Positions 6,438 to 61,523 are shown, counted from the stretch's first letter. The stretch is 64,000 nucleotides of DNA from Chitinophaga pinensis (GCA_945865625.1 CAMBFD010000001.1:34559-98558), one strand, 5' to 3'. Program-made: numbers and translations. The notes: generated from the sequence alone by a model not told the origin.

Positions 6438-8255
6438 TTATCCAAGTAAGGCTTTACTGCCCGCACGTTTACGTTCGTTTTCGTCAAGGATGATTTTTCT
6501 CAAACGAATATTCTCAGGTGTTACTTCTACATATTCATCCTCTTGAATGTATTCCATTGCCTCTTCTAAATTGAATTCTTTAGGTGGCGCCAAAACTGTA
6601 TTGTCGTCTTTTCCCGCAGCACGGAAGTTTGTCATTTGTTTTGCTGTGCACAAATTCAAAACCAAATCACCTGGTTTAATGTGTTCACCAACAATTTGGC
6701 CAGTGTAAATATCAGCACCAGGATGAATGAAGTAATTTCCGCGGTCTTTTAATTTATCCATACTATACCCAGTCGAAAATCCTTTTTCTTTAGAAATCAT
6801 AACTCCATTGATACGGGTTGGCATAGTTCCTTTCCAAGGTTCAAATGCTTTAAAGCGATGCGCCATAATGGCCTCACCTTGAGTGGCTGTAAGTAAGTTG
6901 TTTCTTAATCCCATCAAACCTCTTGAAGGAATTTCAAACTCTAATCTTACCATATCACCTTTAGGCACCATACTCAACATTTCGCCTTTGCGTTGGCTCA
7001 CATATTCAATCACTTTGCCACTGTGGTGTTCAGGTACGTCAACAGTTAAAATTTCAATTGGTTCATGTTTTTTGCCATCAATTTCTTTCAAAATAACACG
7101 TGGTTGACCTACTTGTAACTCGTAACCTTCTCTACGCATTGTTTCAACCAGAACGCCTAAGTGAAGAATACCCCTTCCAAAAACTAAGAATTGGTCTGCA
7201 CTGTTCGTGTCTTCTACTCTCAATGCCAAGTTTTTCTCAGTTTCTTTGTATAAACGCTCACGAATTTTTTGCGAAGTAACATGCTTTCCTTCTTTACCAA
7301 AGAAAGGAGAGTTGTTAATGGCAAACAACATACTCATTGTTGGCTCATCAATTTTCATTGTTGGCAATGCTTCTGGGTTTTCAAAATCGGCAATAGTATC
7401 GCCAATTTCAAAGTTTTCAATTCCTGTAATTGCGCAAATGTCTCCCGAAAAAACTTCTGCAGTTTTTAATTTACCAAGCCCGCTAAAGGTATAAAGTTCT
7501 TTAACACGTTGACGCTCAAGTTTTCCATCTCTTTTTACCAAAGTAATAGGCATGTTTTCTTTTAAATGTCCGCGTTTCAATCTACCAACGGCAATACGAC
7601 CGGTATAACTACTGAAATCTAAACTTGTAATTTGTAATTGAACTGTTCCTTCTTCAACGATAGGAGCAGGAATTACATCAATAATTGTATCCATCAAGAA
7701 AGATAAATCTTCCGTTGGGGTTCTAAAATCTGGTCCAAACCAACCATTTTTACCTGACCCGAAAACGGTTGTAAAATCCAATTGATCTTCGTTTGCTTCT
7801 AAATTGAAAAACAAATCGAAAATATCGTCATGGGTTTTGTCAGGATCACAGTTTGGTTTGTCTACTTTGTTAATTACAACAATCGGTTTTTTACCAAGAG
7901 CAAGTGCTTTTTGCAAAACAAATCGGGTTTGAGGCATTGGGCCTTCAAATGCATCAACTAGGAGCAATACACCATCACACATGTTTAACACACGCTCAAC
8001 CTCACCACCAAAATCGGCGTGACCAGGAGTGTCAATGATGTTGATTTTTGTATCTTTCCAAATAACACTCACGTTTTTAGCAAGAATGGTAATACCACGC
8101 TCACGCTCTAAATCGTTACTGTCGAGAATTAATTCTCCAACTTCTTGATTCTCACGAAAAAGTTGGGCTTGGTGAAGCATTTTGTCAACCAAAGTAGTTT
8201 TACCGTGGTCAACGTGTGCAATGATTGCAATGTTGCGCAGTGAAGACATGTTCAA
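6438..8255 (-). CDS. typA: Translational GTPase TypA/BipA
   Basis: 605 aa. G1 motif AHVDHGKTTL plus EF-G-like domain architecture. Confidence 0.9.
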   Translation of the reverse strand: MNMSSLRNIAIIAHVDHGKTTLVDKMLHQAQLFRENQEVGELILDSNDLERERGITILAKNVSVIWKDTKINIIDTPGHADFGGEVERVLNMCDGVLLLVDAFEGPMPQTRFVLQKALALGKKPIVVINKVDKPNCDPDKTHDDIFDLFFNLEANEDQLDFTTVFGSGKNGWFGPDFRTPTEDLSFLMDTIIDVIPAPIVEEGTVQLQITSLDFSSYTGRIAVGRLKRGHLKENMPITLVKRDGKLERQRVKELYTFSGLGKLKTAEVFSGDICAITGIENFEIGDTIADFENPEALPTMKIDEPTMSMLFAINNSPFFGKEGKHVTSQKIRERLYKETEKNLALRVEDTNSADQFLVFGRGILHLGVLVETMRREGYELQVGQPRVILKEIDGKKHEPIEILTVDVPEHHSGKVIEYVSQRKGEMLSMVPKGDMVRLEFEIPSRGLMGLRNNLLTATQGEAIMAHRFKAFEPWKGTMPTRINGVMISKEKGFSTGYSMDKLKDRGNYFIHPGADIYTGQIVGEHIKPGDLVLNLCTAKQMTNFRAAGKDDNTVLAPPKEFNLEEAMEYIQEDEYVEVTPENIRLRKIILDENERKRAGSKALLG

Positions 8256-24317: not shown

Positions 24318-24350
24318 GGGGCGAAAAGGTAGTTTTTTTTCGCCCTTCTT
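24318..24350 (+). terminator. Rho-independent terminator after the TPR gene
   Basis: GGGCGAAAA-GGTAG-TTTTTTTTCGCCC hairpin followed by TTCTT. Confidence 0.6.
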
Positions 24351-24360
24351 ATTTATTCTG

Positions 24361-24625
24361 GATTATCTGTTTATTGGTACTCGGAGTTCACTAAACCTCA
24401 TAAAACTATTTAATGTTTAGCGTTTAGCGTTTAATGTTTAGCGTTTAATGTTTAGCGTTTAATGTTTAGCGTTTAATGTAATTTACCTGTTTACTGGTAC
24501 TTGGAGTTCACTAAACCTCCTAAACCTATTTAAAGTTTAGCGTTTAATGTTTAATGTTTAAAGTAATACTGGTACTCGGAGTTCACTAAACCTCCTAAGA
24601 GTTTATAGTAATAATGCCAAAATAG
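24361..24625. repeat. Composite tandem-repeat array: three copies of a ~34-bp block interleaved with GTTTAGCGTTTAAT tandem units
   Basis: Blocks CTGTTTATTGGTACTCGGAGTTCACTAAACCTC at 24367-24400, 24486-24520 and 24571-24600. 14-bp tandem run at 24415-24478 (about 4.5 copies) and a shorter run at 24535-24560. TATAAACC dyad at ~24630-24648. Confidence 0.75.
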
Positions 24626-24648
24626 AACCTTTATAAACCCTTATAAAC

Positions 24649-24685
24649 AAAAAAAAAGGTGCAAATTTCTTTGCACCTTTTTTTG
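24649..24685. terminator. Bidirectional Rho-independent terminator (serves the minus-strand gene 24698-25603)
   Basis: AAAAAAAAA-GGTGCAAA-TTTC-TTTGCACC-TTTTTTT. Confidence 0.6.
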
Positions 24686-26608: not shown

Positions 26609-27616
26609 TTGTCTGACCAATCGTTACACGCTCGAAAATTAGACCACATTCAGTTGGCTTTTCAATCTCAGCTTGCTGAACAAGATTCTCGTTTTTATTA
26701 CGAACCCTTATTTTCACCTTCGCCAATCACTGGCTGCATTCCTCCTTTGCAATTGGCTGGTAAAGTGTTGCGCTTCCCTTTGTGGATTAGCAGCATGACA
26801 GGCGGTGCGGAATTGGCAGGGGAAATCAATAAAAACTTGGCAATTGCTTGCAGAGAATTTGGTTTGGGAATGGGCCTTGGCTCTTGCCGACCGGTACTCG
26901 TAGATCCAGTGAATGCAAAAGATTTTGCTGTGCGCAAATTCATAGGCAATCAACCGCTATACGCCAACCTTGGAATTGCTCAAATTGAAGAATTGCTTCA
27001 AACAAATGATGAACAGAAAATTGCAGATTTGGTTGATCGGTTAGAGGCTGATGGACTTATCATCCATGTCAATCCATTGCAAGAATGGTTTCAACCCGAA
27101 GGCGATCAGTATAAAAACGCTCCTATCGATACCATAAAAAGGGTTTTGGATAAATTCCATTTTCCAATTATGGTGAAAGAGGTTGGTCAAGGATTTGGTC
27201 CTAAGTCCCTCAAAGAATTGATGAGACTTCCTTTAGAAGCAGTTGATTTTGGTGCTTTTGGAGGGACAAATTTTAGCGTTTTGGAAAACTTACGTCGCTC
27301 AGACGTAAGAACTGAATCTTGGAAATGTGCAACCCACTTAGGACATACTGCGGAGGAAATGGCGCACTGGGTTTGTGATTGGCTAAATGCCGATGAAGAA
27401 GTATTTAAATCGAAATCCATTATTGTTTCAGGTGGCATTAAAAACTTTTTGGATGGATATTATTTCTTGAAAAAAATCCCTCATAAAACAATGTATGCTC
27501 ATGCTTCATTGTTCTTAAAATATGCCCTTTTGGGAGAACAAGAACTACTCGCTTTTGTAGAAAGCCAAGTTCAGGGACTTGAAATGGCGCAAACCTATTT
27601 AACATTAAAAAAATGA
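26609..27616 (+). CDS. fni: Type 2 isopentenyl-diphosphate delta-isomerase (FMN-dependent)
   Basis: 335 aa. N-terminal RKLDHI motif and TIM-barrel Gly-rich segments (ISSMTGG, GVGG-like). Position at the head of the mevalonate operon. Confidence 0.7.
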   Translation: MSDQSLHARKLDHIQLAFQSQLAEQDSRFYYEPLFSPSPITGCIPPLQLAGKVLRFPLWISSMTGGAELAGEINKNLAIACREFGLGMGLGSCRPVLVDPVNAKDFAVRKFIGNQPLYANLGIAQIEELLQTNDEQKIADLVDRLEADGLIIHVNPLQEWFQPEGDQYKNAPIDTIKRVLDKFHFPIMVKEVGQGFGPKSLKELMRLPLEAVDFGAFGGTNFSVLENLRRSDVRTESWKCATHLGHTAEEMAHWVCDWLNADEEVFKSKSIIVSGGIKNFLDGYYFLKKIPHKTMYAHASLFLKYALLGEQELLAFVESQVQGLEMAQTYLTLKK

Positions 27617-28962
27617 TGAAAACCCAACCTGTGAAAGGATTTAGTAAATTAAGCAAGGAAGCGAAAATTGAGTGGTTAATTCAAAACTTTACCAATCAAC
27701 CAGATGAAACCATGCAAATGCTCACTGGTTATTGGCATGGGCAGCCCGAAGTTCAAAAGCTTCATGATGAATTTATTGAAAATACAATTAGTAATTTTTA
27801 CATGCCTTTTGGTGTCGCGCCAAACTTTCTAATCAACCAAAAAATGTATGCCATTCCTATGGCAATAGAAGAAAGTAGTGTCGTTGCTGCCGCTTCTAAA
27901 TCTGCTAACTTTTGGCTAGATAGAGGTGGTTTCAAATCAGAAGTCATTGGTATGGTTAAAGTTGGGCATGTTCATTTTTTATGGGAAGGAAATGAAATTG
28001 AGTGGATGTTTGATTTGTTTGAAAGCCATAAAAATTTGTTTTACGATCATACAAATGACATCACAAAGAATATGCGACTCCGTGGAGGAGGCATTTTGGA
28101 CTTGAATCTGATTGATAAAACTGAATTTGAACCGGGTTATTTTCAAATTGAAGTCAAATTTGATACCCGCGATAGTATGGGTGCAAATTTTATCAATAGT
28201 TGCCTTGAAGAAATTGCAAAAACTTGGAGAAATTTGATTGAAGAGAGTAAATCGAAAATTCAACCAGATGTAATCATTGTGATGAGCATTCTCAGTAATT
28301 TCACACCGGAATGTTTGGTTAAAGCCGAGGTTTCTTGTAAAATTGACGATATTAATGAAGGTTCGGGGATTGGGAATCTTGAGTTTGCTGAGAAATTCTG
28401 CAGGGCCATTAGAATTGCCACAGTTGAACCATATAGAGCTGTTACGCACAATAAGGGTATCATGAATGGAATTGATGCCGTGATTATGGCAACCGGTAAT
28501 GATTTTCGTGCAACTGAGGCATGTGCTCATGCTTATGCCGCAAAAAATGGAAAATATACGAGTTTGTCGCACGCTGCAATTGATGGCGATACTTTTAATT
28601 TTTGGATCGAATTGCCCATTTCAATTGGCACAGTTGGTGGAATTACCAACTTACATCCAATGGTTAAGTTCGCACATGAACTTCTTGGTTATCCCGGTGC
28701 CTCAGATTTAATGGAAATTGTTGCTGTTGCAGGATTGGCGCAAAATTTTAGCGCGGTGAGATCTTTAATTACTTCAGGAATTCAAAAAGGACACATGAAA
28801 ATGCACCTTTTGAACATTTTAAATCAATTAGAAGCGACCGATGCCGAAAAGATTGAAATTGTAAGCTATTTTAAAGATAAAGTGGTGAGCTTCAGTTCTG
28901 CTGTTGAAGTTTTCTGTAAACTTCGCGGAATTCCAGTAGAATCTTTGTCGAAATCTAAATAA
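27613..28962 (+). CDS. Hydroxymethylglutaryl-CoA reductase
   Basis: 449 aa. Motifs DSMGANFINS (DAMGxN), GTVGG and the ENxIG-like region. 4-nt overlap with fni. Confidence 0.8.
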   Translation: MMKTQPVKGFSKLSKEAKIEWLIQNFTNQPDETMQMLTGYWHGQPEVQKLHDEFIENTISNFYMPFGVAPNFLINQKMYAIPMAIEESSVVAAASKSANFWLDRGGFKSEVIGMVKVGHVHFLWEGNEIEWMFDLFESHKNLFYDHTNDITKNMRLRGGGILDLNLIDKTEFEPGYFQIEVKFDTRDSMGANFINSCLEEIAKTWRNLIEESKSKIQPDVIIVMSILSNFTPECLVKAEVSCKIDDINEGSGIGNLEFAEKFCRAIRIATVEPYRAVTHNKGIMNGIDAVIMATGNDFRATEACAHAYAAKNGKYTSLSHAAIDGDTFNFWIELPISIGTVGGITNLHPMVKFAHELLGYPGASDLMEIVAVAGLAQNFSAVRSLITSGIQKGHMKMHLLNILNQLEATDAEKIEIVSYFKDKVVSFSSAVEVFCKLRGIPVESLSKSK

Positions 28963-29897
28963 TGAAATCCTTTTACGCTCCAGGAAAAGTTTTACTGACG
29001 GGTGAATACTTAGTGCTTAATGGATTTGATGCCATTGCCTTACCCACAAATATTGGACAAACTTTGAACACTTGGGAGTTTGATACACCAGGACAACAAG
29101 AAGATTTTATGATTTTTGAAGCTAAAGATCATTTGGGGGACATTTGGCTCACAACCAGATTTTCGCTGCCCAATTTTGAAATTTTAGAAATCGATAAAAA
29201 AGAAAATCTTGAACTCGATAGACTTGCCGGGATTTTCAAAAAAGCAGATCCTGCATTTTGGAAATTAGGAAAATCTTTGCGTTTGGAAACCAATTTGCAA
29301 TTCAATCGCGTTCACGGGTTAGGAAGCAGTAGCACTTTAGTGACATTGCTTTCTGATTATATGAATCTCGATGCATTGCAAGTTCAGTTCGATATATTTA
29401 GCGGTAGCGGCTATGATGTGGCCATTGCTAAAAGTCGTAAACCTTTGGTCTATTGGTTAACTGAAACCGATTCGAATTGGAACTTTTGGTCGTTAAACCC
29501 AGAGCTTACAAAAAATTGGACGATTGTGTTTTACGGTCAAAAAATGGATTCAAGAGCAAGCATTAAAAATGTTCAAGACGCTCTCAATGAAATTGCTGAA
29601 GATGAGTTTTATACAGCGCAAATTGATCATATTCTGAATCTTACTAAATCGGCAAAAGATGTTCTCAGCTTGGAAGCAAGTTTAGAAATGTATCAAAAAA
29701 TATTGTCACAATCTCTTGAATTGCCAACCCCTTACGATGTTTTGGAAATTGAGCCAATTGCTCAAGGACTTTGCAAATGGTTGGGAGCGTGGGGTGGAGA
29801 TATGATTTTAGTTAACGATATAGTGCTAGAAGCTTACAATTCTAAATTTGAAAAATTTGAAAAAGTAGGTTGGAATCAATTGGTAATGAATCAATAA
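28962..29897 (+). CDS. GHMP-family kinase, putative phosphomevalonate kinase (divergent)
   Basis: 311 aa. N-terminal APGKVLLTGEYLVLNG resembles the MVK/PMK N-terminus. Gly/Ser-rich ATP motif HGLGSSST. Sits between HMGR and MVD. Confidence 0.45.
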   Translation: MKSFYAPGKVLLTGEYLVLNGFDAIALPTNIGQTLNTWEFDTPGQQEDFMIFEAKDHLGDIWLTTRFSLPNFEILEIDKKENLELDRLAGIFKKADPAFWKLGKSLRLETNLQFNRVHGLGSSSTLVTLLSDYMNLDALQVQFDIFSGSGYDVAIAKSRKPLVYWLTETDSNWNFWSLNPELTKNWTIVFYGQKMDSRASIKNVQDALNEIAEDEFYTAQIDHILNLTKSAKDVLSLEASLEMYQKILSQSLELPTPYDVLEIEPIAQGLCKWLGAWGGDMILVNDIVLEAYNSKFEKFEKVGWNQLVMNQ

Positions 29898-29898
29898 A

Positions 29899-30927
29899 AT
29901 GCAGAAAGTTGTAAAATATCGTTGTCCAAGCAACATTGCTTTGGTCAAATATTGGGGGAAAAAAGATGGCGGTGTTCAACTGCCAGCCAATGCAAGTATC
30001 AGTTGGTCGTTAAGTGATTTATTCGCCGAAACAACCATGATTGCCACTCCTGCAATTCAAACCCAATTGGAATTCAAATACGATGGGAATCCAAAACCGT
30101 CGTTTGAGCCCAAAATACTTGATTTTTTGAATAGAATTGCACCTTTTAGCGATTTTATAAAGCAACATTCGTTCGAGGTTGACACCATCAATAACTTTCC
30201 TCATGGAACTGGTATTGCCAGTTCTGCTGCCGGGTTTGGTGCGTTAGCGCTTTGCATTGCCGATCTCGAGGGTAAATATGAAGTTGGATCAGATGAATTT
30301 TACCAACGCGCAAGTTTCTTTGCCAGACTGGGCTCTGGAAGTGCCTGCAGAAGTGTATACAGTAAACCCGCAATTTGGGGTGAACACCCAGAGGTTGAAA
30401 ATAGTTCCGATTTATTTGCCGTTCCTTTTGAGGGACAAATTCACGAATCGCTTCAAAACTGGAATGATTGTGTATTGATTGTAGACGATGGCGAGAAAAA
30501 GGTAAGCAGTACAGCTGGTCATTCCTTGTTGAAAAACCACCCTTATGCAGAAGCCCGATTTAAGCAAGCTCAAAAAAACATCGGAAATATTTTGCAATAT
30601 ATGCAAAATGGAAATGTATCTGATTTTATCGCTTTGGTAGAATCTGAAGCTTTGCAATTGCATTCTATGATGATGTCGTCTATTCCATATTTCACCCTCA
30701 TTAGACCAGGTACTTTAGCCATATTGGAGGAAATTTGGACATTTAGAGAAGAAACAAATTTACCTATTGCTTTCACGCTTGACGCAGGCGCAAACGTTCA
30801 TTTGCTCTATTCAAATGAAATAGAGGAGCAAGTCATAAACTTTATTCATAATAAGTTGTTAGTTAACTGTAAAAAAGGTTTGTATCTTTGCAGTAGCATA
30901 GGAGGAAAGCCTCTAAAACTATCTTAA
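29899..30927 (+). CDS. mvaD: Diphosphomevalonate decarboxylase
   Basis: 342 aa. N-terminus PSNIALVKYWGKKD and GHMP motif GTGIASSAAGFGAL. Confidence 0.8.
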   Translation: MQKVVKYRCPSNIALVKYWGKKDGGVQLPANASISWSLSDLFAETTMIATPAIQTQLEFKYDGNPKPSFEPKILDFLNRIAPFSDFIKQHSFEVDTINNFPHGTGIASSAAGFGALALCIADLEGKYEVGSDEFYQRASFFARLGSGSACRSVYSKPAIWGEHPEVENSSDLFAVPFEGQIHESLQNWNDCVLIVDDGEKKVSSTAGHSLLKNHPYAEARFKQAQKNIGNILQYMQNGNVSDFIALVESEALQLHSMMMSSIPYFTLIRPGTLAILEEIWTFREETNLPIAFTLDAGANVHLLYSNEIEEQVINFIHNKLLVNCKKGLYLCSSIGGKPLKLS

Positions 30928-52245: not shown

Positions 52246-52752
52246 ATGGAATCTCAAAAAATCGCCCCAAACAGAGTGGTTAGTTTAAGCTATTCTCTGT
52301 CGTTAACAAACGGACAAATTGCAGACGAAGCTACTGCTGAACAACCACTAGTGTTTATTCACGGTGTTGGTCAAACCTTACCTGAATTCGATGCGCGCAT
52401 AGAAGGACTGAGTGTAGGAGAAGGATTTTCTTTCACTTTAACTGCTGAACAAGGATATGGAGAATCTGACGAACGTTGGATTATCGAATTGCAAAAATCA
52501 ATTTTTGAAGGACCGGATGTGCCTGCAGACATTTTGCAAATAGGAGCACTTTTACCAATGCAAGACCAAGATGGCAATCCAATGGATGGCAAATTAGTTG
52601 AAATTGGCGACGAAACTGTGAAGTTAGACTTCAACCACCCGTTGGCTGGCGAAGCTTTACATTTCACTGGTAAAGTTGAATCTGTAAGAGAAGCAACTTC
52701 CGACGAATTGGACCATGGCCACGTTCATGGTGAAGGCGGGCATCAACATTAA
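52246..52752 (+). CDS. slyD: FKBP-type peptidyl-prolyl cis-trans isomerase, SlyD-like, with His-rich C-terminus
   Basis: 168 aa. FKBP fold with inserted IF-like flap. C-terminal HGHVHGEGGHQH metal-binding tail. Confidence 0.75.
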   Translation: MESQKIAPNRVVSLSYSLSLTNGQIADEATAEQPLVFIHGVGQTLPEFDARIEGLSVGEGFSFTLTAEQGYGESDERWIIELQKSIFEGPDVPADILQIGALLPMQDQDGNPMDGKLVEIGDETVKLDFNHPLAGEALHFTGKVESVREATSDELDHGHVHGEGGHQH

Positions 52753-52865
52753 GCCATAAACGATTAAACGGTTAAACGGTTAGGAGGATTAGAAGGATTA
52801 AACGGTTAGAAGGATTAGAAGCAATCTAATAATCCTATAATCTTATAATCCTATAATCTGTCCAA
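52753..52865. repeat. Composite intergenic short-tandem-repeat element (TAAACGxTTAAACGG units, GGATTAGAAG/GGTTAGAAG units, TATAATCC units)
   Basis: AAACGATTAAACGGTTAAACGG; then GGTTAGGAGGATTAGAAGGATTAAACGGTTAGAAGGATTAGAAG; then CCTATAATCTTATAATCCTATAATC. Lies between convergent slyD and the dnaE-family gene. Confidence 0.65.
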
Positions 52866-55800
52866 TTAAATTCTTGGATCTAATTGGATTCCCAACTTTT
52901 CCATCTGAGTCACCTCAATGTTAAATACCCCGAAGTCTGCGGTGATTTGTCCCCAAATGCGATAAACACCGCGGCCTTTGAAAGGGTAGCGCGATACAAT
53001 CTGTGGGAAGTGAATGCTATCAAAGAAATATCCATCGCGGTCTACCCATGTTCCAAAGTTCATTTCCTTGCCCCCAATTGTCTTTGTGGGCTTTACCGTG
53101 ACCAAATATCCCTCAAGCATCACCGATTTGTGAAGCAGTTTGCCCAAATCTCTCGCCCTTAACTTGGATCCTTCATCGGGCTCACTGGTTAGGGTAAACG
53201 GACTGCAAAGTGGAAACCCCAAGAATTCCCTTTGATCTATGGCAATTTCTAACCACGAGTCTTCTAATGGCGGTAATTCGTATGTTTTCGGTTGTTCTGT
53301 GAACAATTTTGCGGAAATTATTTCCTGTTTTTTTTGCGAATAATACGAATGTGCCTCCCATAAAAGTGCCCGTCTCGACTTTTCTGTGTATCTGAATGCC
53401 CCAATTTGGATTAAGATTTTTAACTGCTCTAAGCCAGGTTCTACCCGTGTTTTGAAATCATATAAACTTTCAAATGCACCTTCTTTTTGCGCCGCGAAAA
53501 TTCTTTCTGCACACCTTTGCTCTAGTCCTTGTATGAGTCCCAACCCCAGCCAAATCGTTTTCCCCTCAATTTTTGTGAGAAATTTGCTGTGGTTTGCACA
53601 AGGTGCTTGCACGTCGGCGCCGCACATTCGGGCAGCGTGAACATAAAATTCGGTGCGGTAAAAACCTCCGAAATTGTTAATCACCGCCACGTAAAATTCG
53701 AGCGGATAATAGGCTTTCAAATGCAAACTCTGGTAACTCTCCACCGCGTAACTCGCACTATGTCCCTTCGCAAAACTATATCCTGCAAAACTTTCAATTT
53801 GCTTCCACACTTCAACAATGAGTTGGTGTGAATGTCCCTTCTCCCTGGCTTTTTCATAAAATTGTTGCTGAACTTTCAGAAATTCTGCCTTGCTCCTAAA
53901 TTTCCCGCTCATGCCACGTCTTAAAACATCGCTTTCAGCAAGTCCTAAGCCCGCAAAATGATGGGCCACGCGAATCACATCTTCCTGATACACCATGATT
54001 CCATACGTTTCGGGCATAATTTCTTGTAAAATTGGGTGGGCTTCCGTGCGCTTCCTTACATCGATATGCCTTTCAATGAATGTTCGCATCATGCCACTTC
54101 TGGCAACCCCCGGACGTATCACACTGCTGGCCGCCACCAACGTGAGGTAGTCTCGGCATTTGAGTTTTCGCAACAATTGTCGCATGGCAGGACTTTCTAC
54201 ATAAAAGCAGCCCATGGTAAATCCAGTTTCAATAATTCTGGCAATTTTTGGGTCGTTTTTAAACGTTTGAATTTGGTGTGGATCTACATCAATGCCTTGA
54301 TTTTCTTTGATATAGATTACGGCATCTTTGATGTGCCCAAGTCCTCGTTGACTTAAAATATCGAACTTTGCAAGTCCTAAATCTTCAGCTTCAAGCATGC
54401 TAAATTGCACGGTGGGGAATCCTTTTGGAGGCATTTCCAACGCCGAATAATGGTAGATGCTTTTTTCGGAAATGAGAATTCCCCCCACATGAATGCTCCG
54501 ATAATTTGGCAGATTGTGAATTTTTCGGGCATGTTTTAACAAAGTTGCATACAGCGACTCTTTGCTTTCGAGAGTATTTTCTGAATTTGCAGCGGTTTTG
54601 GGCTTCCATTCTCTATTTCTAAGTCCAATTCCCGGAGTGCTATAGATAGAATCGCTGTTGGTTGAAAATTCCTCAAAGTTGGCATCTCCATAATAGGTTG
54701 GCCGTTCGAGTAAATTGTCGATTTCGGCCTTTGGTAAGCCATACACTTTGCCGAGTTCTCTCACCACGGCATTGCTCTGAAAGGTGTTGTAAGTGCCAAC
54801 CAATGCAGCATGGTGCGGGCCGTATTTCTCCATGATGTAAGCGGTAACCTGATCGCGGTCTTGCCATGAAAAATCGAGGTCGAAGTCGGGCGGACTACTT
54901 CTGTAAGGATTGATAAACCGTTCGAAATACAAATCGAGGTCAATGGGGTCAACATCGGTAATTTTCAGGCAATAGGCCACCATGCTATTGGCGCCGCTCC
55001 CTCGTCCTACATGAAAAAATCTTTGCTCTTCGGCAAATCGGCAAATGTCCCAGTTGATTAAAAAATAAGATGTAAATCCCAGTTCATAAATGAGTTGCAT
55101 TTCTTTTTCTAGGCGCTTCGTGGTTTCGTAGGTGTAATTTGGATAGCGGTATTTAAGTCCCTCAAAAGCCAACTCCCTTAACATTCTATAGTCTTGGTCG
55201 ACATTTTGTGTAAACGTTTTTTTATTCTGAGGGACATTGAAGTCGAAGCTCCAATGTGGTTGATTGACAATCGATTGTGCGTTTTGTAATAGTATGGGAG
55301 TGTCTAAAAACTCATTGACAATGCTGGCAATGTCTTCAAATAGATCGTATTTAGAGGCGGTGCAATTGGGTTTAAGTTTTGTGAGGAGGCAATTGTGTTG
55401 GATGCAACGCAAGAGGGTGTGGGTGTGGAGGTCGTCGATATTTCTGAGGGTGGCTTTGTGGTATGCAATGAGTCGCTTTGCCGAATTTTTCCACGGCGAC
55501 AATCTGAGTTTCCTCAATTGTTGTTTTGTGATGCCAATGAGGGCATGTGAAGGGATGTCTTTGTGCGAGAGTCCAATGACCTTATGGAAGGGGTAGATGC
55601 AGGTTACGTGTTCGAGTTTTGGCGCCAAAATGGGGAAGGGGAGGTTTTGCATCAAAAATTCTGATAAAAACTGGTTGATATTGGCAAATCCGGCATGCGA
55701 ATTTGCAATGAGAAGGTAGAGGGATTCGTCGTTATTTTTAATTTCCACGCCAACTAGCGGAACAACATTTGGATATTTTTTGGCTTCTTTTAGAAAGTTG

Positions 55801-55949
55801 GTGGCACCGCTGACATTGTTGATATCGGCTAGCAGGATATGCACGGTTTCATTGAGGGTATCAGCCTGGTTTTTTGCCCAAAGAACAATATCCTCGGGGC
55901 TAAGTAATCCGTACCGTAAGCTAAAGTAAGAGTGTGCATGAAAAACCAT
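52866..55949 (-). CDS. dnaE2: DNA polymerase III alpha-subunit family protein, short form (DnaE2/ImuC-like)
   Basis: 1027 aa. N-terminal PHP domain (MVFHAHSYFSLRYG), polymerase palm motif FHVGRGSGANSMVAYCLKITDVDP, C-terminal OB fold. Too short for a replicative DnaE, and no tau-binding C-terminal extension. Confidence 0.65.
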   Translation of the reverse strand: MVFHAHSYFSLRYGLLSPEDIVLWAKNQADTLNETVHILLADINNVSGATNFLKEAKKYPNVVPLVGVEIKNNDESLYLLIANSHAGFANINQFLSEFLMQNLPFPILAPKLEHVTCIYPFHKVIGLSHKDIPSHALIGITKQQLRKLRLSPWKNSAKRLIAYHKATLRNIDDLHTHTLLRCIQHNCLLTKLKPNCTASKYDLFEDIASIVNEFLDTPILLQNAQSIVNQPHWSFDFNVPQNKKTFTQNVDQDYRMLRELAFEGLKYRYPNYTYETTKRLEKEMQLIYELGFTSYFLINWDICRFAEEQRFFHVGRGSGANSMVAYCLKITDVDPIDLDLYFERFINPYRSSPPDFDLDFSWQDRDQVTAYIMEKYGPHHAALVGTYNTFQSNAVVRELGKVYGLPKAEIDNLLERPTYYGDANFEEFSTNSDSIYSTPGIGLRNREWKPKTAANSENTLESKESLYATLLKHARKIHNLPNYRSIHVGGILISEKSIYHYSALEMPPKGFPTVQFSMLEAEDLGLAKFDILSQRGLGHIKDAVIYIKENQGIDVDPHQIQTFKNDPKIARIIETGFTMGCFYVESPAMRQLLRKLKCRDYLTLVAASSVIRPGVARSGMMRTFIERHIDVRKRTEAHPILQEIMPETYGIMVYQEDVIRVAHHFAGLGLAESDVLRRGMSGKFRSKAEFLKVQQQFYEKAREKGHSHQLIVEVWKQIESFAGYSFAKGHSASYAVESYQSLHLKAYYPLEFYVAVINNFGGFYRTEFYVHAARMCGADVQAPCANHSKFLTKIEGKTIWLGLGLIQGLEQRCAERIFAAQKEGAFESLYDFKTRVEPGLEQLKILIQIGAFRYTEKSRRALLWEAHSYYSQKKQEIISAKLFTEQPKTYELPPLEDSWLEIAIDQREFLGFPLCSPFTLTSEPDEGSKLRARDLGKLLHKSVMLEGYLVTVKPTKTIGGKEMNFGTWVDRDGYFFDSIHFPQIVSRYPFKGRGVYRIWGQITADFGVFNIEVTQMEKLGIQLDPRI

Positions 55950-55984
55950 TTTGATAATATTATTGACAATTAATTGGCAACAAT

Positions 55985-56109
55985 ATACGCAAAAAATCCA
56001 AAATGGTTAGAAAGATTAGAAAGATTAGAAGATCAAAAATCCAATACGCCTATAAACTTATAAACCAATAAGCCAGTAGGCTGAAGTAATTAAGTATTAA
56101 ACATTAAAT
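55985..56109. repeat. Composite intergenic short-tandem-repeat element (GGTTAGAAAGATTAGAAAGATTAGAAG; TATAAACTTATAAACC; TAAACATTAAAT)
   Basis: Core at 56005-56066. Same three sub-motifs as 52753-52865. Lies between the divergent dnaE-family and DCC genes. Confidence 0.65.
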
Positions 56110-56112
56110 TTG
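56105..56112 (+). promoter_or_regulatory. Bacteroidota -7 promoter element TAAATTTG upstream of the DCC gene
   Basis: Matches TAnnTTTG 12 nt upstream of the ATG at 56125. Confidence 0.3.
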
Positions 56113-56124
56113 CTCAAGCATTGG

Positions 56125-56481
56125 ATGAAAAATAACATTGTGTTTTTTGATGGGGTGTGTAATCTCTGTAACGGTTGGGTTAAGTTTCTAAAGAAATATG
56201 ATCGGAAAAAGCGATTTGAAATGCACTCTCTTCAATCGCAAATGGCCACTAGTTTGATACCCCCACAATATCTTTCCGCACAACCAGAGTCTATCATTTA
56301 TCTCCGAAATGGTAAAATCTTCACAAAATCCCTCGCAGTTTGCTTTATTTTTAAAGATCTTCCCTTGCCATTTTCTCTACTCTATGCCTTAAGAATCATC
56401 CCTCCATTCATCAGAGATTCTGTGTATAAATGGGTTGCAAAAAATAGGTATCGGTGGTTTGGGAAATGCGATATTCTTTGA
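56125..56481 (+). CDS. DCC-family thiol-disulfide oxidoreductase (DUF393)
   Basis: ATG at 56125 (MKNNIVFFDGVCNLCNGWVKFL); the ORF-track start at 56110 is a TTG. CxxC motif in the characteristic FDGxCxLC context. Confidence 0.7.
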   Translation: MKNNIVFFDGVCNLCNGWVKFLKKYDRKKRFEMHSLQSQMATSLIPPQYLSAQPESIIYLRNGKIFTKSLAVCFIFKDLPLPFSLLYALRIIPPFIRDSVYKWVAKNRYRWFGKCDIL

Positions 56482-56575
56482 GAAATTTAATGCTTAAAGT
56501 TTAGTGCTTAATGTTGGTTCAAAGTTTAATATAAACCGTCCACTAATCCCTCTAACCATTCTAACCCCCTAATCC
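56482..56575. repeat. Composite intergenic short-tandem-repeat element in inverted orientation (AATGCTTAAAGTTTAGTGCTTAATG; TATAAACC; CTAATCC/CTAACC units)
   Basis: The reverse complement GGATTAGGGGGTTAGAATGGTTAGAGGGATTAG matches the GGTTAGAAG/GGATTAGAAG arrays at 52781-52824 and 56005-56031. Overlaps the stop codon of the efflux adaptor gene. Confidence 0.65.
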
Positions 56576-57843
56576 TTTTTTACCTTATCGCCATTGTTCA
56601 AGGTTTTTGCAATGGCCATTGCAGGTTCAGAAATGACTTCATCTCCCAGTTTAAGTCCCTCAAGAACTTCAAAGTAATCTATATCTTGAATGCCCGTTTT
56701 TACCTTAACTGCCTTTGCATTACCGTTGATGTTTAAGAAAACCCAAGTGCTAATGGTTGTCTCTTTTTTCTGCGGTTTGTCGCCATCTTTTTGAATCTCT
56801 GGGTTTCTGGTGGTTAACGATGAAATGGGAATCGACAATACATTTGTTTTTGTAACCGATTTGATGTCAACCGACGCCGTCATTCCTGGAAAAAATGCCT
56901 GGGTTGATTTTGCAGTGATTAGGTCTCTATAACTGCTTTGTAGCAATCTCACTTTCACAGTATAATTTGTGACTTGTTCATTCATGTTGGTGGCCACATT
57001 GAATTTTGCAGAATTTGCAATTTCTGTGACAATTCCTTTGAAAACCCTGTCGGTGTACGCATCAACTTTAATGTCGGCACTATCGCCTTTATGCACCCTA
57101 ACGATATCATTTTCATTGATATTCACCTGAACTTCCATGATGTTTAAATTGCTGATGCGCATGATTTCTGTTCCGGCCATTTGCGCAGTTCCCACCACCC
57201 GTTCTCCCTTTTCGCTATTGAGTTGGGTTACAATTCCAGATGCTGGAGCATATATGCTGGTTCTACCGAGGTTTTTTGATCCTTCTTCGACCCTGGCCAT
57301 TAAACTTTTTACATTGAATTGGGCCGATAATATATTTTTTGAGGCAATGGTGTAATCAGCTTGACTGTTTTCGAATTGCAATCGTGCGTTTTCGAATTCT
57401 TGATCGCTAATTACTTTTTGCTCGTGAAGTTGCTTTTGGCGTTTGAAATTAATTTCAGATTGCGCCAATGCCATCTTCGCCTTTATTTGCTGTGCTTCTG
57501 ATCCTGCCAACCCCGCTTTTGCATTGTCTAAATTGGCCTTGAGCTGACTCATGGTGGTTTGGTATAACTCTGGATTGATCCGCAATAAAAGTTGTCCTTT
57601 TGTAACACTATCTCCTTCTTTGACAAACATTTCGGTGATTTCTCCAGAGACGTCGGGACTAATTTTCACTTCGAATTCTGGTTGGATTTTGCCGGTAACA
57701 CTCACCACTTCGGTAATGGTGCGCGCTGTGACTTTTTCGGTAGACACTTCAACAGGTTTTTGACCGCCGGTGACAACTTTTACTATGATAAAAATAACAA
57801 CTATAGCGGCAATGCTTATCCAAATGGTTTTTTTCTTGTTCAT
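56569..57843 (-). CDS. Efflux transporter periplasmic adaptor subunit (MacA/HlyD-type membrane fusion protein)
   Basis: 424 aa. N-terminal TM anchor, biotinyl-lipoyl-like hairpin, long coiled-coil and beta-barrel domains. Confidence 0.8.
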   Translation of the reverse strand: MNKKKTIWISIAAIVVIFIIVKVVTGGQKPVEVSTEKVTARTITEVVSVTGKIQPEFEVKISPDVSGEITEMFVKEGDSVTKGQLLLRINPELYQTTMSQLKANLDNAKAGLAGSEAQQIKAKMALAQSEINFKRQKQLHEQKVISDQEFENARLQFENSQADYTIASKNILSAQFNVKSLMARVEEGSKNLGRTSIYAPASGIVTQLNSEKGERVVGTAQMAGTEIMRISNLNIMEVQVNINENDIVRVHKGDSADIKVDAYTDRVFKGIVTEIANSAKFNVATNMNEQVTNYTVKVRLLQSSYRDLITAKSTQAFFPGMTASVDIKSVTKTNVLSIPISSLTTRNPEIQKDGDKPQKKETTISTWVFLNINGNAKAVKVKTGIQDIDYFEVLEGLKLGDEVISEPAMAIAKTLNNGDKVKKD

Positions 57844-59348: not shown

Positions 59349-59409
59349 TTTGTGGAAAACATGTCAGTTGCAATGTTAAACAATAATTTATTTTTGTATC
59401 GGTGTTTAG

Positions 59410-59600
59410 GTTTTCGAAGGGTAATGGCTTACTCTAAGAAATGAAAAGGGAACATCGGTGTAAGACCGAGACTGTACCCGCAGCTGTAACCCCCATCTGA
59501 AAAGATGTAATTTTAGGCTTCTATGCCACTGTGTAAACGGGAAGGCGCCTAAAATGGGGAAGTCAGAAGACCTGCCTACGGCATCACAAAAACTCGCTTT
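59410..59600 (+). ncRNA. Cobalamin (adenosylcobalamin) riboswitch
   Basis: Conserved core AAAAGGGAACATCGGTGTAAGACCGA...CCCGCAGCTGTAACC...GCCACTGTG...GGGAAGGCGCC...GTCAGAAGACCTGCC. Matches the B12-box and flanking consensus in order and spacing. Immediately upstream of the btuB-like gene. Confidence 0.8.
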
Positions 59601-59675
59601 CGGGAATAAAAGCGCGGTGGTGATTTGCTCGTGGGCAATTTATCTCCCTTTTATTTGCGTTGGCGATACCCAATT

Positions 59676-61523
59676 ATGTTGTTGAACATTGGACATATCG
59701 CTTCTCTCTTTTGCGCCTTCGGCGACACCGTGCAAAATTTGCCTGTCGATACCGTCTATATCCAAGCTCAACGCATTGAATTTTGTCAGTTGGGACGCGT
59801 GAAACTCGATTTTCAAAATTCAACATCCCCACAAACCCTTCAAAATAACCTCGCTGCAAATGCAGTTTTTTTCAAGCAATACGGGGTTTCTGGGTCGTCT
59901 ACAATTTCTAGACGAGGGGCCGATGCCGCCCAAACGCAGGTGTTATGGAATGGACTGCCCGTGAACAACCCTATGCTCGGGATGGCAGATTTTAACAACC
60001 TCACTGCCTTTGGTTTGCAAGAAGTCTTTCTCATTGAAGGTGGGAATGCCGCACTTTTAGGTTCAGGCAGTGTGGGTGGAACCGTGTTTTTAAGAAATAA
60101 AGTAAAATATGGTGAAGGATTCAACGCCAATCTAACTTCGCAGTACGGCCAATTTGGCAATCTTTCACTGGGTTTAAATTTAATTCAATCTGCTAAAAAT
60201 CATTATTTTCAATTTACGTTTGGACAACTAAACTATCAAAATAAATTTACCTTTTTTGATGTTCTCAATCAAGAAAATAAAATTGCGCAAAATGCAAATC
60301 TTTTTCAAACAATTGGTAGGGTCGTTTATGGATTTAAGCAGGGTAACCACGACTTAAAATTGGTGGTTGAGTATGCAAATAATGAACGTGGACTTGGACA
60401 AAAGGCGGGTGGAAATCAATTGAATGGCTTACAAAAGGATTTAAACTTACGCAGTGTTTTAGAGCATCAATACAATCAAGGAAAGTATTTATGGGTGAAT
60501 CGATTAGGTTTTGTGAGAGACCAAATTAAATATTACGAAGATATTTTGAATGCCGATTCAAGTGTTGCAAGTACGCCTTATTTTCAAACTGAATTTTATA
60601 AAAATATTGGTGCTTTCAGGTGGCTCATTGGTTTCGACGCACAACAGCAAAGAGCGTTTTCAGTGAATTACATTCAAGTGAACCCAAGTCGATTCTACGC
60701 TGCTTCGTTTGCTTCGGTGACGTTTAAACTGAAACAAGCCGATTTTAATTTGAATGCACGGCATGAATTTTACGAAAATATTCCAACTTTTGGAATTTCA
60801 TCGGTGGTGCCAGTTAAAAAGTGGTTTCAAATTAAATCGAACATTCATTCAACTTTTAGAAGACCAACCTTAAACGATTTATTCTGGAGAACAAACGCTA
60901 CAGAAATTGCAAAATCTGAAAAAGGATGGGGAGTAGAACTCGGATTGTTGAAAAACATTCAATCTACTTTTGTTGATGCAACGTTTGAATTAACATCGTA
61001 TTACAGGGAATTAAAAGATCCAATTATTTGGATTCCGAATGGGGTTTCTTGGATTGCAACAAATTTTCACAATGGCCAATATGCTGGGATCCAATTTAAT
61101 GGGAAGGTGTCTAAAGGGTATCACAATCAAAAAATAGCATTCAATTTTGGTGGAGAATGGGTGAACTCTCACGTAAAAAAAGGCATTGAACAGCCGGGGT
61201 ATGCGCAAATTTTCATTCCCGATTTTATGGGGTTTGTGGGTGTGATTTTAGATCGTAAATTGTTATCGTACAAAATAGATATTCAGCACACCGGCAATCG
61301 ATACATTCAAACCGACAACTTGGCTTGGATGCCTGGATATAGAATTGTGAATTGCCAAGTTTCAATGAAGCAGTGGCAGTTTACGTCCCTCAAAAATCAC
61401 AAAAAAGTAAAATGTGAAGCTTCTGTTGAATGCCGAAATATGCTCAATACAAATTACCAAAATATGCCGAGTAGACCCATGCCAGGAAGGTCGTTTTGGC
61501 TGAATTTAAACATCTTAATATAA
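59676..61523 (+). CDS. btuB: TonB-dependent outer-membrane receptor, BtuB-like (cobalamin uptake)
   Basis: Start set to the ATG at 59676 (MLLNIGHIASLF signal peptide); the ORF-track start at 59625 is a TTG inside the riboswitch platform. Plug-domain region DTVYIQAQRIE and beta-barrel. Riboswitch context. Confidence 0.7.
   Translation: MLLNIGHIASLFCAFGDTVQNLPVDTVYIQAQRIEFCQLGRVKLDFQNSTSPQTLQNNLAANAVFFKQYGVSGSSTISRRGADAAQTQVLWNGLPVNNPMLGMADFNNLTAFGLQEVFLIEGGNAALLGSGSVGGTVFLRNKVKYGEGFNANLTSQYGQFGNLSLGLNLIQSAKNHYFQFTFGQLNYQNKFTFFDVLNQENKIAQNANLFQTIGRVVYGFKQGNHDLKLVVEYANNERGLGQKAGGNQLNGLQKDLNLRSVLEHQYNQGKYLWVNRLGFVRDQIKYYEDILNADSSVASTPYFQTEFYKNIGAFRWLIGFDAQQQRAFSVNYIQVNPSRFYAASFASVTFKLKQADFNLNARHEFYENIPTFGISSVVPVKKWFQIKSNIHSTFRRPTLNDLFWRTNATEIAKSEKGWGVELGLLKNIQSTFVDATFELTSYYRELKDPIIWIPNGVSWIATNFHNGQYAGIQFNGKVSKGYHNQKIAFNFGGEWVNSHVKKGIEQPGYAQIFIPDFMGFVGVILDRKLLSYKIDIQHTGNRYIQTDNLAWMPGYRIVNCQVSMKQWQFTSLKNHKKVKCEASVECRNMLNTNYQNMPSRPMPGRSFWLNLNILI

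What the first reader, a model, noticed from the sequence alone, without database searches (positions are those of the whole stretch)
52753..56575. One intergenic repeat vocabulary recurs at three more sites and bounds a 3.8-kb dnaE2+DCC segment with inverted arrays
Arrays at 52757-52859, 56005-56066 and 56491-56575 are built from the same three sub-motifs seen at 24.4 kb. These are TAAACG/GTTTAGCG-TTTAAT-like units, GGTTAGAAG/GGATTAGAAG-like units and TATAAACC/TATAATCC-like units. The 52.8-kb and 56.0-kb arrays are in the same orientation (GGTTAG.. on the top strand). The 56.5-kb array is their reverse complement (CTAATCCCTCTAACCATTCTAACCCCCTAATCC). As a result, the segment carrying the dnaE-family gene and the DCC gene is delimited by inverted GGATTAGAAG-type arrays about 3.8 kb apart. 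The same GGATTAGAAG-type motif is also present at 24.4 kb in reverse orientation (CACTAAACCTCCTAAACC). Three of the four sites lie between convergently transcribed genes, as is typical for REP/BIME-type elements. Alternatively they may be footprints of insertion boundaries or arrays of protein-binding sites.
Basis: seen in the sequence. Interest (0 to 1): 0.7.

Follow-up and report, generated by a model that had tools for sequence, protein, structure and literature searches.

The report
Hypervariable short-repeat clusters between genes
Four gaps between genes in this freshwater Flavobacteriales genome are filled with fast-changing clusters of 7-10-base tandem repeats; they are a little-studied but already noted kind of bacterial "minisatellite", and they do not mark the ends of a mobile dnaE2+DCC segment.

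Summary
The arrays are real and non-random. Five TRF arrays (258 nt) all fall in four gaps, against 0-2 arrays in shuffles. Exact strings shared between different sites reach 23-39 nt, against a null maximum of 13.

They are composite clusters of 7-10-nt tandem units. Most units share a G[GAT]TTA[GTA] core or its complement.

Strains with 96-99.8% identical flanks differ in unit number, in the copy number of a 75-120-nt module at site A, and sometimes in the whole allele. Assemblies often break at the arrays.

Congeners carry arrays in the same gaps. More distant relatives have 57-114-bp gaps without arrays.

The dnaE-family gene sits beside slyD-ligA in 18 related loci, 13 of them without arrays. 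So the arrays do not bound a recently inserted 3.8-kb segment.

Structural variants do start at arrays, however. Site C is a synteny breakpoint, the DCC gene is swapped for a 50%-identical allele, and a two-gene cassette sits inside site B of a congener.

The units are not REP-like palindromes, and the window encodes no transposase or integrase.

Best reading: slippage- and recombination-driven intergenic minisatellites (LSSR/STRR-like), as already noted in other Flavobacteriia. Function is unproven.

The parts
24347..24650 (.). Site A: composite repeat cluster in the 406-bp convergent gap. It holds three copies of a higher-order module, each with 7-nt arrays, then TATAAACC-type units.
   Evidence: The gap measures 211-406 bp in the intact contigs of the same species.
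24375..24399 (+). Higher-order module core TGGTACTCGGAGTTCACTAAACCTC, copy 1. Copies 2 and 3 lie at 24495-24519 and 24570-24594.
   Evidence: 3 matches against 0 expected. The module is present as 1, 2 or 3 copies in different strains. It occurs only at site A in all loci held.
24415..24479 (+). GTTTAGC/GTTTAAT 7-nt (14-nt) tandem array. A second, shorter array lies at 24529-24564.
   Evidence: score 116. Unit number differs between strains.
24318..24346 (+). Terminator-like hairpin just after the TPR gene, left of the site A arrays.
24651..24684 (.). Bidirectional terminator-like hairpin to the right of the site A arrays.
52757..52821 (+). Site B left arm: TAAACGRT (8-nt) and TTAGRAGGA (9-nt) units. 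It starts 5 nt after the slyD stop codon.
52823..52859 (+). Site B right arm: TATAATCY 8-nt units. Its TAATCC core is complementary to GGATTA in the left arm. It ends 7 nt before the stop codon of the dnaE-family gene.
   Evidence: inverted pairs I1-I5. The folds give z -3.7 as DNA and -4.4 as RNA.
56005..56066 (+). Site C: GRTTAGAAA x3, then TATAAACY x2, in the divergent gap between the dnaE-family gene and DCC.
   Evidence: The species has two alleles of this gap (175 and 238 bp) plus a third, rearranged type.
56486..56575 (.). Site D: TTTARTG/CTTAAWG units, one TATAAACC, then CTAATCC/CTAACC units (the GGTTAG-type core on the - strand). The last unit supplies the HlyD stop codon.
   Evidence: Length is invariant in 10 strains. 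Strain L323 carries a different dyad allele.
52246..52752 (+). FKBP-type peptidyl-prolyl isomerase (SlyD-like), left flank of site B.
52866..55949 (-).
   Evidence: it passes the superfamily model TIGR00594 (484 against a cut-off of 434) but not the error-prone DnaE2 subfamily (422 against 939).
56125..56481 (+). DCC1-like thiol-disulfide oxidoreductase. The likely ATG start is at 56125.
56569..57843 (-). HlyD-family membrane-fusion protein, right flank of site D.

Best explanation
The four sites are clusters of intergenic 'minisatellites': several adjacent tandem arrays of 7-10-nt units. They fall in the class called long simple sequence repeats with 5-11-nt units, similar to cyanobacterial STRR and to the heptamer-repeat 'assemblages' already noted in other Flavobacteriia. 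They occupy the only sizeable spacers of a very compact chromosome in an uncultured freshwater Flavobacteriales lineage.

How they change:
1. Shown: whole units are gained and lost, as expected from slipped-strand mispairing.
2. Shown: a 75-120-nt higher-order module at site A is present in 1-3 copies, which points to unequal recombination or slippage.
3. Inferred: unit variants are copied between the two arms of a gap and between neighbouring gaps, by template switching or ectopic conversion. This would keep a common vocabulary and often a dyad layout, with a G-rich arm facing a complementary C-rich arm.
4. Shown: whole alleles are exchanged between strains and species by homologous recombination anchored in the conserved flanking genes.
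5. Shown as co-occurrence, causality inferred: because the arrays are repetitive, these spacers are also where insertions, gene replacements and a synteny break occur.

The arrays are not the ends of a mobile dnaE2+DCC unit. No sequence-specific function is demonstrated. I regard them as mostly neutral, recombination-prone spacer DNA. At sites B and D they may incidentally provide the only hairpin between convergent genes.
For: Non-randomness.

Unit-number polymorphism among strains:
- Flanks are 96-99.8% identical.
- Site B shows 6 different alleles in 8 contigs.
- Site A shows 7 alleles, with 1, 2 or 3 module copies.
- Site C has alleles of 175 and 238 bp.

Whole-allele replacement with conserved flanks:
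- L001 at site B, nearly identical to the allele of a different species, L036, whose flanks are 88-92% identical.
- L067 at site A.
- L323 at sites C and D.

Assembly breaks:
- Three contigs end 2 nt after the slyD stop codon.
- Eleven of 12 DCC-bearing contig blocks are under 5 kb.
- 49 of 120 metagenome hits lie at contig ends.

Phylogenetic pattern:
- Congeners L011, L012, L036 and L039 have arrays in the same gaps.
- Thirteen more distant loci have 57-114-bp array-free gaps.

Copying between gaps:
- A 102-nt stretch is 86% identical on both sides of DCC' in L323.
- A 39-nt exact match links site C in one species to site D in another.

Structural variants at arrays.

No mobile-element genes in 64 kb.

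The class is widespread and composite:
- 73 of 120 loci have two or more different adjacent arrays.
- The arrays are almost always intergenic.

Precedent: MacGregor 2015 (PMC4679880) describes the same behaviour in Gramella, Aequorivita and Elizabethkingia. That paper summarises Mrazek 2007 on slippage of 5-11-nt repeats.
Against: - Slippage alone does not explain why several unrelated-looking units sit side by side, or why different gaps use the same units.
- Site B alleles keep arm complementarity and fold better than shuffles (z -1.5 to -3.7). This could reflect selection for a hairpin.
- Sites B and D have no canonical terminator, so a termination role is not excluded.
- Site D did not vary in length in 10 strains.
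- No genome-wide census of this species was possible. Only about 82 kb was examined.
- Mutation rates were not measured. Some 'alleles' come from short-read metagenome assemblies, which can mis-assemble repeats.
Confidence: 0.6

Rival explanations
1. The clusters are copies or remnants of a non-autonomous mobile element of foldback/MITE type. Its inverted ends are built from short tandem units, and it is mobilised in trans by a gene outside the window.
For: - Site B, and the L011 allele, have a dyad layout: GGATTAGAC x4, then about 250 bp, then GTCTAATC x4.
- A roughly 100-bp dyad element occurs on both sides of DCC' in L323 at 86% identity.
- A 39-nt non-periodic exact match links sites C and D across species.
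- Metagenome contigs L209, L270 and L300 show [GGTTTATA]n, about 50 nt, then [TATAAACC]n.
- Ten of 120 arrays have an inverted partner array within 400 nt.
Against: - No target-site duplication or fixed termini were seen.
- Arrays persist at orthologous gaps across species while their content changes continuously.
- The site A module occurs nowhere else in any locus held.
- The 64-kb window has no transposase.
- Sites A and C show no dyad.
- 110 of 120 arrays in the broad sample have no inverted partner.
Confidence: 0.15
2. The arrays are functional cis-elements analogous to REP/BIME. They would act either as hairpins serving as bidirectional terminators or mRNA stabilisers, or as multi-site platforms for a DNA-binding protein such as gyrase, an IHF-like factor or another nucleoid protein, placed between convergent genes.
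For: - Three of the four sites are in convergent gaps.
- Sites B and D lack any canonical terminator, while their arms can pair: site B RNA -30 kcal/mol with z -4.4, site D minus strand z -2.8.
- Distant relatives have a small terminator-like hairpin in the same gap (L014-L018 and L021).
- Different alleles each keep complementary arm cores, GGATTA/TAATCC or GGTTTA/TAAACC.
Against: - The site A arrays lie between two canonical terminators, so they are probably not transcribed.
- No T-run follows the array hairpins.
- A formal pair count finds only one double-sided change, which gives no statistical support for a selected structure.
- Unit sequences, numbers and whole alleles turn over between near-identical strains.
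- In the broad sample there is no bias to convergent gaps (9 of 50) and none to the transcribed strand (18 against 12).
- The units are not palindromic REPs.
Confidence: 0.15
3. One reading: the inverted GGATTAGAAG-type arrays at 52.8 and 56.5 kb are the boundaries of an inserted or invertible 3.8-kb dnaE2+DCC segment.
For: - The two arrays are in opposite orientation.
- The DCC gene varies in position and allele among relatives.
- Site C and the DCC gene are involved in rearrangements.
Against: - The dnaE-family gene is adjacent to slyD-ligA in 18 related loci at 60-80% identity. Thirteen of these have array-free 57-114-bp gaps.
- L039 keeps the same gene order.
- A third array (C) lies inside the segment.
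- Site B contains both orientations of the core.
- The structural variants seen do not start and end at B and D together.
Confidence: 0.03

Closest known systems
Long simple sequence repeats with 5-11-nt units (LSSR; Mrazek et al. 2007, as summarised in PMC4679880)
   Same: Both are tandem arrays of 7-10-nt units, far longer than chance allows. Both are mostly intergenic and sporadic in phylogenetic distribution, and both are thought to change by polymerase slippage.
   Different: Here several different unit families are packed into one gap. The same families recur in other gaps and often face each other as complementary arms. LSSR is a statistical class, not a mechanism.
Heptamer-repeat 'assemblages' in intergenic regions of Flavobacteriia (Gramella forsetii, Aequorivita sublithincola, Elizabethkingia anophelis; MacGregor 2015, PMC4679880)
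   Same: The phylum and class are the same. Both are long intergenic arrays mixed with other short direct repeats. Both are absent from close relatives with the same gene neighbourhood. In both, contigs end inside the repeats, and a link to rearrangement has been suggested.
   Different: The units differ: TAACTGA there, and the G[GAT]TTA[GTA] family with 7-10-nt periods here. The population-level allele series, the dyad layout and the cassette and synteny-break associations are documented here, not there.
STRR (short tandemly repeated repetitive) heptamer sequences of heterocystous cyanobacteria (own knowledge: Mazel et al. 1990)
   Same: Both are families of short (7-nt) tandemly amplified units dispersed in non-coding DNA, lineage-specific and of unknown function.
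   Different: The phylum and the unit sequences differ. STRR arrays are usually of one unit type each. No dyad arrangement is described for them.
REP/BIME elements of enterobacteria (own knowledge)
   Same: Both are extragenic, often lie between convergent genes, occur in alternating orientations and vary between strains.
   Different: REPs are 20-40-nt imperfect palindromes present in hundreds of near-identical copies and linked to RAYT transposases. Here the units are 7-10-nt, non-palindromic and tandem, and no RAYT is present in the window.
Foldback transposons and MITEs whose inverted ends are made of short tandem repeats (own knowledge)
   Same: Some alleles (site B, L011, L323, L209/L270/L300) have inverted arms made of tandem 8-10-nt units around a short centre.
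   Different: There are no target-site duplications and no fixed ends. Dispersed identical copies are not demonstrated, and the arrays stay at orthologous positions.
Integron attC sites and gene cassettes (own knowledge)
   Same: Both involve imperfect dyads of variable sequence flanking single genes (DCC' in L323). L011 units contain GTCTAAC...GTTAGAC, which fits the attC core consensus RYYYAAC/GTTRRRY.
   Different: No integrase is present in the window. The genes are not co-oriented in an array. The sites here are tandem repeats with variable copy number. The motif match is low in information and absent from the window's own units.

Membership tests
LSSR / VNTR-type minisatellite (5-11-nt units) | Head-to-tail copies of a 5-11-nt unit, longer than expected by chance in that genome | tested here: met
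   TRF finds 5 arrays covering 258 nt, against 0-2 arrays and at most 64 nt in 60 shuffles.
LSSR / VNTR-type minisatellite (5-11-nt units) | Copy number varies between closely related genomes | tested here: met
   Unit numbers differ at sites A, B and C among contigs with 96-99.8% identical flanks. Site D is length-invariant in 10 strains.
REP/BIME | The unit is a 20-40-nt imperfect palindrome able to form its own stem-loop | tested here: not met
   Units are 7-10 nt and not palindromic. Pairing exists only between whole arms at site B and, weakly, at site D.
REP/BIME | Many near-identical copies dispersed over the genome | not testable with these tools
   Only about 82 kb of this species could be read, giving four sites. 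The species' full genome could not be scanned.
REP/BIME | Association with a RAYT (IS200/IS605-like) transposase | tested here: inconclusive
   No transposase of any kind is encoded among the window's ORFs. A RAYT could lie elsewhere in the genome.
MITE / foldback element | Terminal inverted repeats | tested here: inconclusive
   A dyad of arrays is present at site B, L011, L323 and some metagenome loci. It is absent at sites A and C and in 110 of 120 broad-sample arrays.
MITE / foldback element | Target-site duplication and filled versus empty sites with sharp boundaries | tested here: not met
   Alleles differ by graded unit numbers or by total replacement, and no flanking duplication was seen. 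The L039 cassette is flanked by a duplicated piece of the array itself.
MITE / foldback element | Multiple copies of the same element at unrelated loci | tested here: inconclusive
   Only neighbouring gaps C and D share a 102-nt element. The site A module is unique in all loci held. There is no match in plasmids or phages.
Integron attC / cassette array | Tyrosine-recombinase integrase and co-oriented cassettes, each ending in an attC with R''/L''-L'/R' boxes | tested here: not met
   There is no integrase. The flanking genes are convergent or divergent. Only the L011 units fit the core consensus.
Known structured RNA family (Rfam) | A match at gathering score to a curated covariance model | tested here: not met
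   The only Rfam hit in the window is a cobalamin riboswitch at 59391-59593.
Error-prone DnaE2 (ImuC), the label given to the bounded gene | Score above the NCBIfam subfamily cut-off, and an imuA/imuB partner | tested here: not met
   NF004225 scores 422 against a cut-off of 939. Only the Pol III alpha superfamily model is passed. The neighbours are slyD and DCC.

The most novel reading that the evidence does not exclude
The dyad repeat clusters may not be passive junk. They could be portable recombination 'handles' of freshwater Flavobacteriales: either a foldback-type non-autonomous element family, or integrase-independent sites at which small gene cassettes are inserted, swapped and duplicated by recombination between array copies. 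Candidate cassettes are DCC/DCC' and the XRE-regulator plus lipoprotein pair in L039. On this reading, the arrays actively structure gene-content variation in otherwise streamlined genomes.
Probability: 0.12. Interest if true: 0.7.

Novelty: new member of a known kind. Interest (0 to 1): 0.4.

Why it matters
Streamlined freshwater bacteria have almost no non-coding DNA. Finding that much of what remains consists of fast-evolving repeat clusters is therefore informative.

These clusters have three practical consequences:
- They break metagenome assemblies.
- They differ between near-identical strains.
- They coincide with gene swaps and a synteny break.

This is useful for strain typing, since the arrays are natural VNTR markers. 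It is also useful for interpreting MAG fragmentation and for studying how recombination hot spots arise.

The phenomenon is widespread in metagenomes. It has only been mentioned in passing for Flavobacteriia, and its origin and any function remain open.

Tried and rejected
- REP/BIME membership: the units are not palindromic and the window holds no RAYT.
- Mobile dnaE2+DCC island: rejected by synteny.
- Rho-utilisation (C-rich RNA) sites: the C-rich strand of TATAAWC arrays is sense in 18 and antisense in 12 co-directional gaps, so there is no bias.
- Selected RNA or DNA hairpin with covariation: on alignment A1 only one pair has a double-sided change, which is not better than the controls. 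I therefore withdrew my earlier impression of 'compensatory arm changes' as statistical evidence.
- In-situ inversion of the site-B array between species: the apparent inversion is equally explained by arm complementarity, so I do not claim it.
- Known RNA family: none found.
- Plasmid or phage origin: no BLAST match.
- Literal sequence search of the literature: no paper contains the units. A keyword search on Flavobacteria repeats was uninformative.
- A degenerate scan, GRTTAGNNN x3, in viral contigs was too unspecific. It returned coding GLG repeats and phage operator-like triplets.
- CsrA-type GGA decoys, Bacteroidetes -7 promoter boxes and integron attC cores were each considered from the sequence. 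None fits all four sites.
- The taxonomy of the metagenome contigs that carry similar arrays was not established.

Full report
**What is in the sequence**

The window has about 36% G+C and is very compact. Most intergenic gaps are under 100 bp.

Tandem Repeats Finder places short-unit arrays at these positions:
- 24415-24479 and 24529-24564, with GTTTAGC/GTTTAAT units
- 24626-24648
- 52757-52821, with TAAACGRT and TTAGRAGGA units
- 52823-52859, with TATAATCY units
- 56007-56030, with TTAGAAAGA units
- 56486-56515

Reading the sequence adds TATAAACY x2 at 56051-56066 and CTAATCC/CTAACC units at 56538-56575.

The signal is well above chance:
- With score >=45 and period 7-10, the window has five arrays (258 nt), all in four gaps. 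Sixty dinucleotide shuffles give 0-2 arrays and at most 64 nt.
- GRTTAGRAG occurs five times against 0.93 expected, only at 52.8 and 56.0 kb.
- Paired TATAAWC units occur only at sites A, B and C.

**Gene context**
- Site A lies between a TPR protein gene and a DUF8428 gene that converge on it.
- Site B lies between an FKBP/SlyD-like gene and a Pol III alpha-family gene, also convergent.
- Site C lies between that polymerase gene and a DCC1-like gene, which diverge from it.
- Site D lies between the DCC gene and a HlyD-family gene, convergent.
- T9SS sorting domains in neighbouring genes, and the closest MAGs, place the organism in uncultured freshwater Flavobacteriales.
- All other window genes are housekeeping. 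There is no transposase, integrase, RAYT or reverse transcriptase.

**One vocabulary, often arranged as a dyad**

The forms are:
- GTTTAGC and GTTTAAT
- GGTTAGAAG and GATTAGAAG
- GGATTATA, the complement of TATAATCC
- GGTTTATA, the complement of TATAAACC
- GTTTAACC, the complement of the TAAACG-type units

At site B the GGATTAGAAG-type left arm faces a TATAATCC-type right arm, so GGATTA pairs with TAATCC. That gap folds better than shuffles:
- as RNA on the + strand, -30 kcal/mol with z -4.4
- as DNA, z -3.7

Other site-B alleles give z values from -1.5 to -3.2. The site D minus strand gives z -2.8. Sites A and C give nothing.

A formal pair count on an alignment of the two allele classes finds only one double-sided change. 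I therefore treat the dyad as a frequent layout, not as a demonstrated selected structure.

The vocabulary shared between sites is real. The longest exact strings shared by different sites are 17-39 nt, against a null maximum of 13.

**Population behaviour**

Exact-protein look-ups retrieved the same loci from many metagenomes. The flanks are 96-99.8% identical to the window.

- Site B: six different alleles occur in eight contigs. They differ by whole units in each array.
- Site B, allele L001: this allele is entirely different. It has GGTTTATRAG x4 facing TAAACNGA units. It is almost identical to the allele of another species, L036, whose flanks are 88-92% identical.
- Site A: the 7-nt unit number varies. 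A 75-120-nt higher-order module, with core TGGTACTCGGAGTTCACTAAACCTC, is present once, twice or three times. One contig, L067, carries a wholly different allele built from GGATTATA and CATAAGCC units.
- Site C: the gap has two alleles, of 175 and 238 bp.
- Site D: it was length-invariant in ten strains, but a further strain has a different allele.

Assemblies break at the arrays:
- Three contigs end 2 nt after the slyD stop codon.
- Eleven of twelve DCC-bearing contig blocks are under 5 kb.

**Relatives and synteny**

A LigA-anchored scan of one genome per species gave 50 loci.

- The polymerase gene lies beside slyD-ligA in 18 of these loci, at 60-80% protein identity.
- In 13 of them the slyD/polymerase gap is 57-114 bp and has no arrays. 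Some have a small terminator-like hairpin instead.
- Only the genus-level relatives L011, L012, L036 and L039 have arrays in this gap, and the content differs between them.
- L011 has GGATTAGAC x4 at one end and GTCTAATC x4 at the other, around about 250 bp of further repeats.
- L039 keeps the window's gene order and has TATAAACC-type units at site C.

So the polymerase gene is an old resident of this position. The arrays do not mark a recently inserted dnaE2+DCC segment.

The 'dnaE2' name is also unverified. The protein passes only the Pol III alpha superfamily cut-off and has no imuA/imuB neighbour.

**Structural variants do begin at arrays**

Three cases were found.

- DCC replacement in L323. 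Strain L323 is 96% identical to the window over HlyD-OEP. It carries a DCC allele that is only about 50% identical in protein. That gene is flanked on both sides by a roughly 100-bp dyad element: [GGTTTATAAG]x4, a loop, then ATAAACCTYATAAACTATCTAAACCTCATAAAC. The two copies are 86% identical over 102 nt.
- Synteny break at site C. Upstream of the L323 DCC allele is not the polymerase gene. Instead there is a remnant of a 306-aa gene, and further upstream an FGE-sulfatase gene and T9SS proteins. The intact arrangement is seen in L329, L330 and L334-L339. Site C is therefore a synteny breakpoint within the genus. L329 and L330 combine the divergent DCC allele with the window-type site D, so they are recombinant mosaics.
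- Cassette in L039. A two-gene cassette, an XRE-type regulator and a lipoprotein, sits inside the site-B arrays. It is flanked by a duplicated array fragment, GTTTATAAARGTTGAGT.

They do not support the specific 3.8-kb unit.

**How general the phenomenon is**

The contigs range from 0.2 to 0.55 G+C.

- The arrays are almost always intergenic. Only 2 of 71 non-edge cases fall inside an ORF.
- 49 of 120 lie at contig ends.
- 73 of 120 have two or more different adjacent arrays.
- 10 of 120 have an inverted partner array.
- In gene-dense contigs, 32 arrays lie in co-directional gaps, 9 in convergent gaps and 9 in divergent gaps.
- The C-rich strand is sense in 18 co-directional cases and antisense in 12.

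There is therefore no general tie to convergent gaps or to transcription direction.

**Comparison with what is known**

MacGregor 2015 (PMC4679880) reports long intergenic heptamer arrays accompanied by 'other heptamer direct repeats' or 'larger assemblages of heptamer repeats'. The species are Gramella forsetii, Aequorivita sublithincola and Elizabethkingia anophelis. In that report:
- the arrays are absent from close relatives with the same neighbourhood
- contigs end inside the repeats
- a role in rearrangement is suggested

The paper also summarises Mrazek et al. 2007 on long simple sequence repeats with 5-11-nt units and polymerase slippage. Cyanobacterial STRR sequences are a further analogue (own knowledge).

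**Conclusion**

The most economical reading is that these are hypervariable composite minisatellite clusters in the few free spacers of a streamlined genome. The processes involved are:
- slippage
- unequal and ectopic recombination
- allele exchange through the conserved flanks

These processes make the same spacers hot spots for structural change. Slippage and allele exchange are shown by the allele series. Copying between arms and between gaps is inferred from shared strings. Causation of the structural variants is inferred from co-location.

The rivals are not excluded, but each fails at least one test:
- a foldback/MITE-like element
- a functional hairpin or protein-binding platform

I rate the finding as a new member of a known but poorly understood kind, of moderate interest.

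Noticed in passing
window 59391-59593 (+): A cobalamin riboswitch (Rfam RF00174, 86.9 bits) lies directly upstream of the TonB-dependent receptor gene at 59625-61523.
   Followed up: no
window 55963-55980: A near-perfect palindrome, TTGACAATTAATTGGCAA, lies between the start of the Pol III alpha-family gene and the site C arrays. It is conserved in all strains (with one G/A SNP) and in congener L039. It is probably an operator for the polymerase and/or DCC promoter.
   Followed up: partly
window 52866-55949 (-); L007 3993-5836; L048 3891-7349: The 'dnaE2' gene passes only the Pol III alpha superfamily model, not the error-prone DnaE2 subfamily, and has no imuA/imuB neighbour. It is called as two overlapping ORFs in one metagenome contig, L007. 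In L048 it is interrupted by a low-complexity AGT-rich stretch.
   Followed up: partly
window 24318-24346 and 24651-24684: Two canonical terminator-like hairpins bracket the site A arrays, the right one bidirectional. These arrays are therefore probably not transcribed. No such hairpins exist at sites B and D.
   Followed up: yes
L323 180-276; L337 ~725-800: A 25-codon ORF (MLRKIYSLAVLGCLAIALNAQIELQ*) is what remains of a 306-aa secreted-protein gene that is intact in L329 and L334. It is an in-frame internal deletion that leaves the signal peptide joined to the last codons.
   Followed up: partly
L321 17943-18253; L324 9962-10308 (about 8 kb beyond the window's right end): A 310-bp convergent gap holds a tRNA-like sequence, hairpins and an unrelated segment of about 150 bp that is duplicated in one strain (L324). 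It is a different kind of intergenic repeat in the same genome.
   Followed up: no
L098 ~3240-3390 and ~7420-7560; L088 ~650-780; L187: AT-rich phage contigs carry AGGTTAGGS x3 and its inverted copy around a core of about 70 bp, at several places per genome. The layout looks like an operator or origin.
   Followed up: no
L124 4414-4602: A viral contig has a run of six different short units, each repeated about three times in a row: GTTAGTTAG, TATAAATCC, CGTCCGTG, GATCAATT, GAGTAGACC and AAGGGT.
   Followed up: no
L209 ~3820-3975; L270 ~1990-2103; L300 ~4560-4831: Metagenome contigs with about 51% G+C, some from activated sludge, have [GGTTTATA]n, a roughly 50-nt palindromic centre, then [TATAAACC]n. 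They are the cleanest examples of the dyad layout outside this lineage.
   Followed up: partly
window 27613-30927: Mevalonate-pathway genes, HMG-CoA reductase and diphosphomevalonate decarboxylase, lie in a co-directional cluster next to site A's neighbourhood.
   Followed up: no
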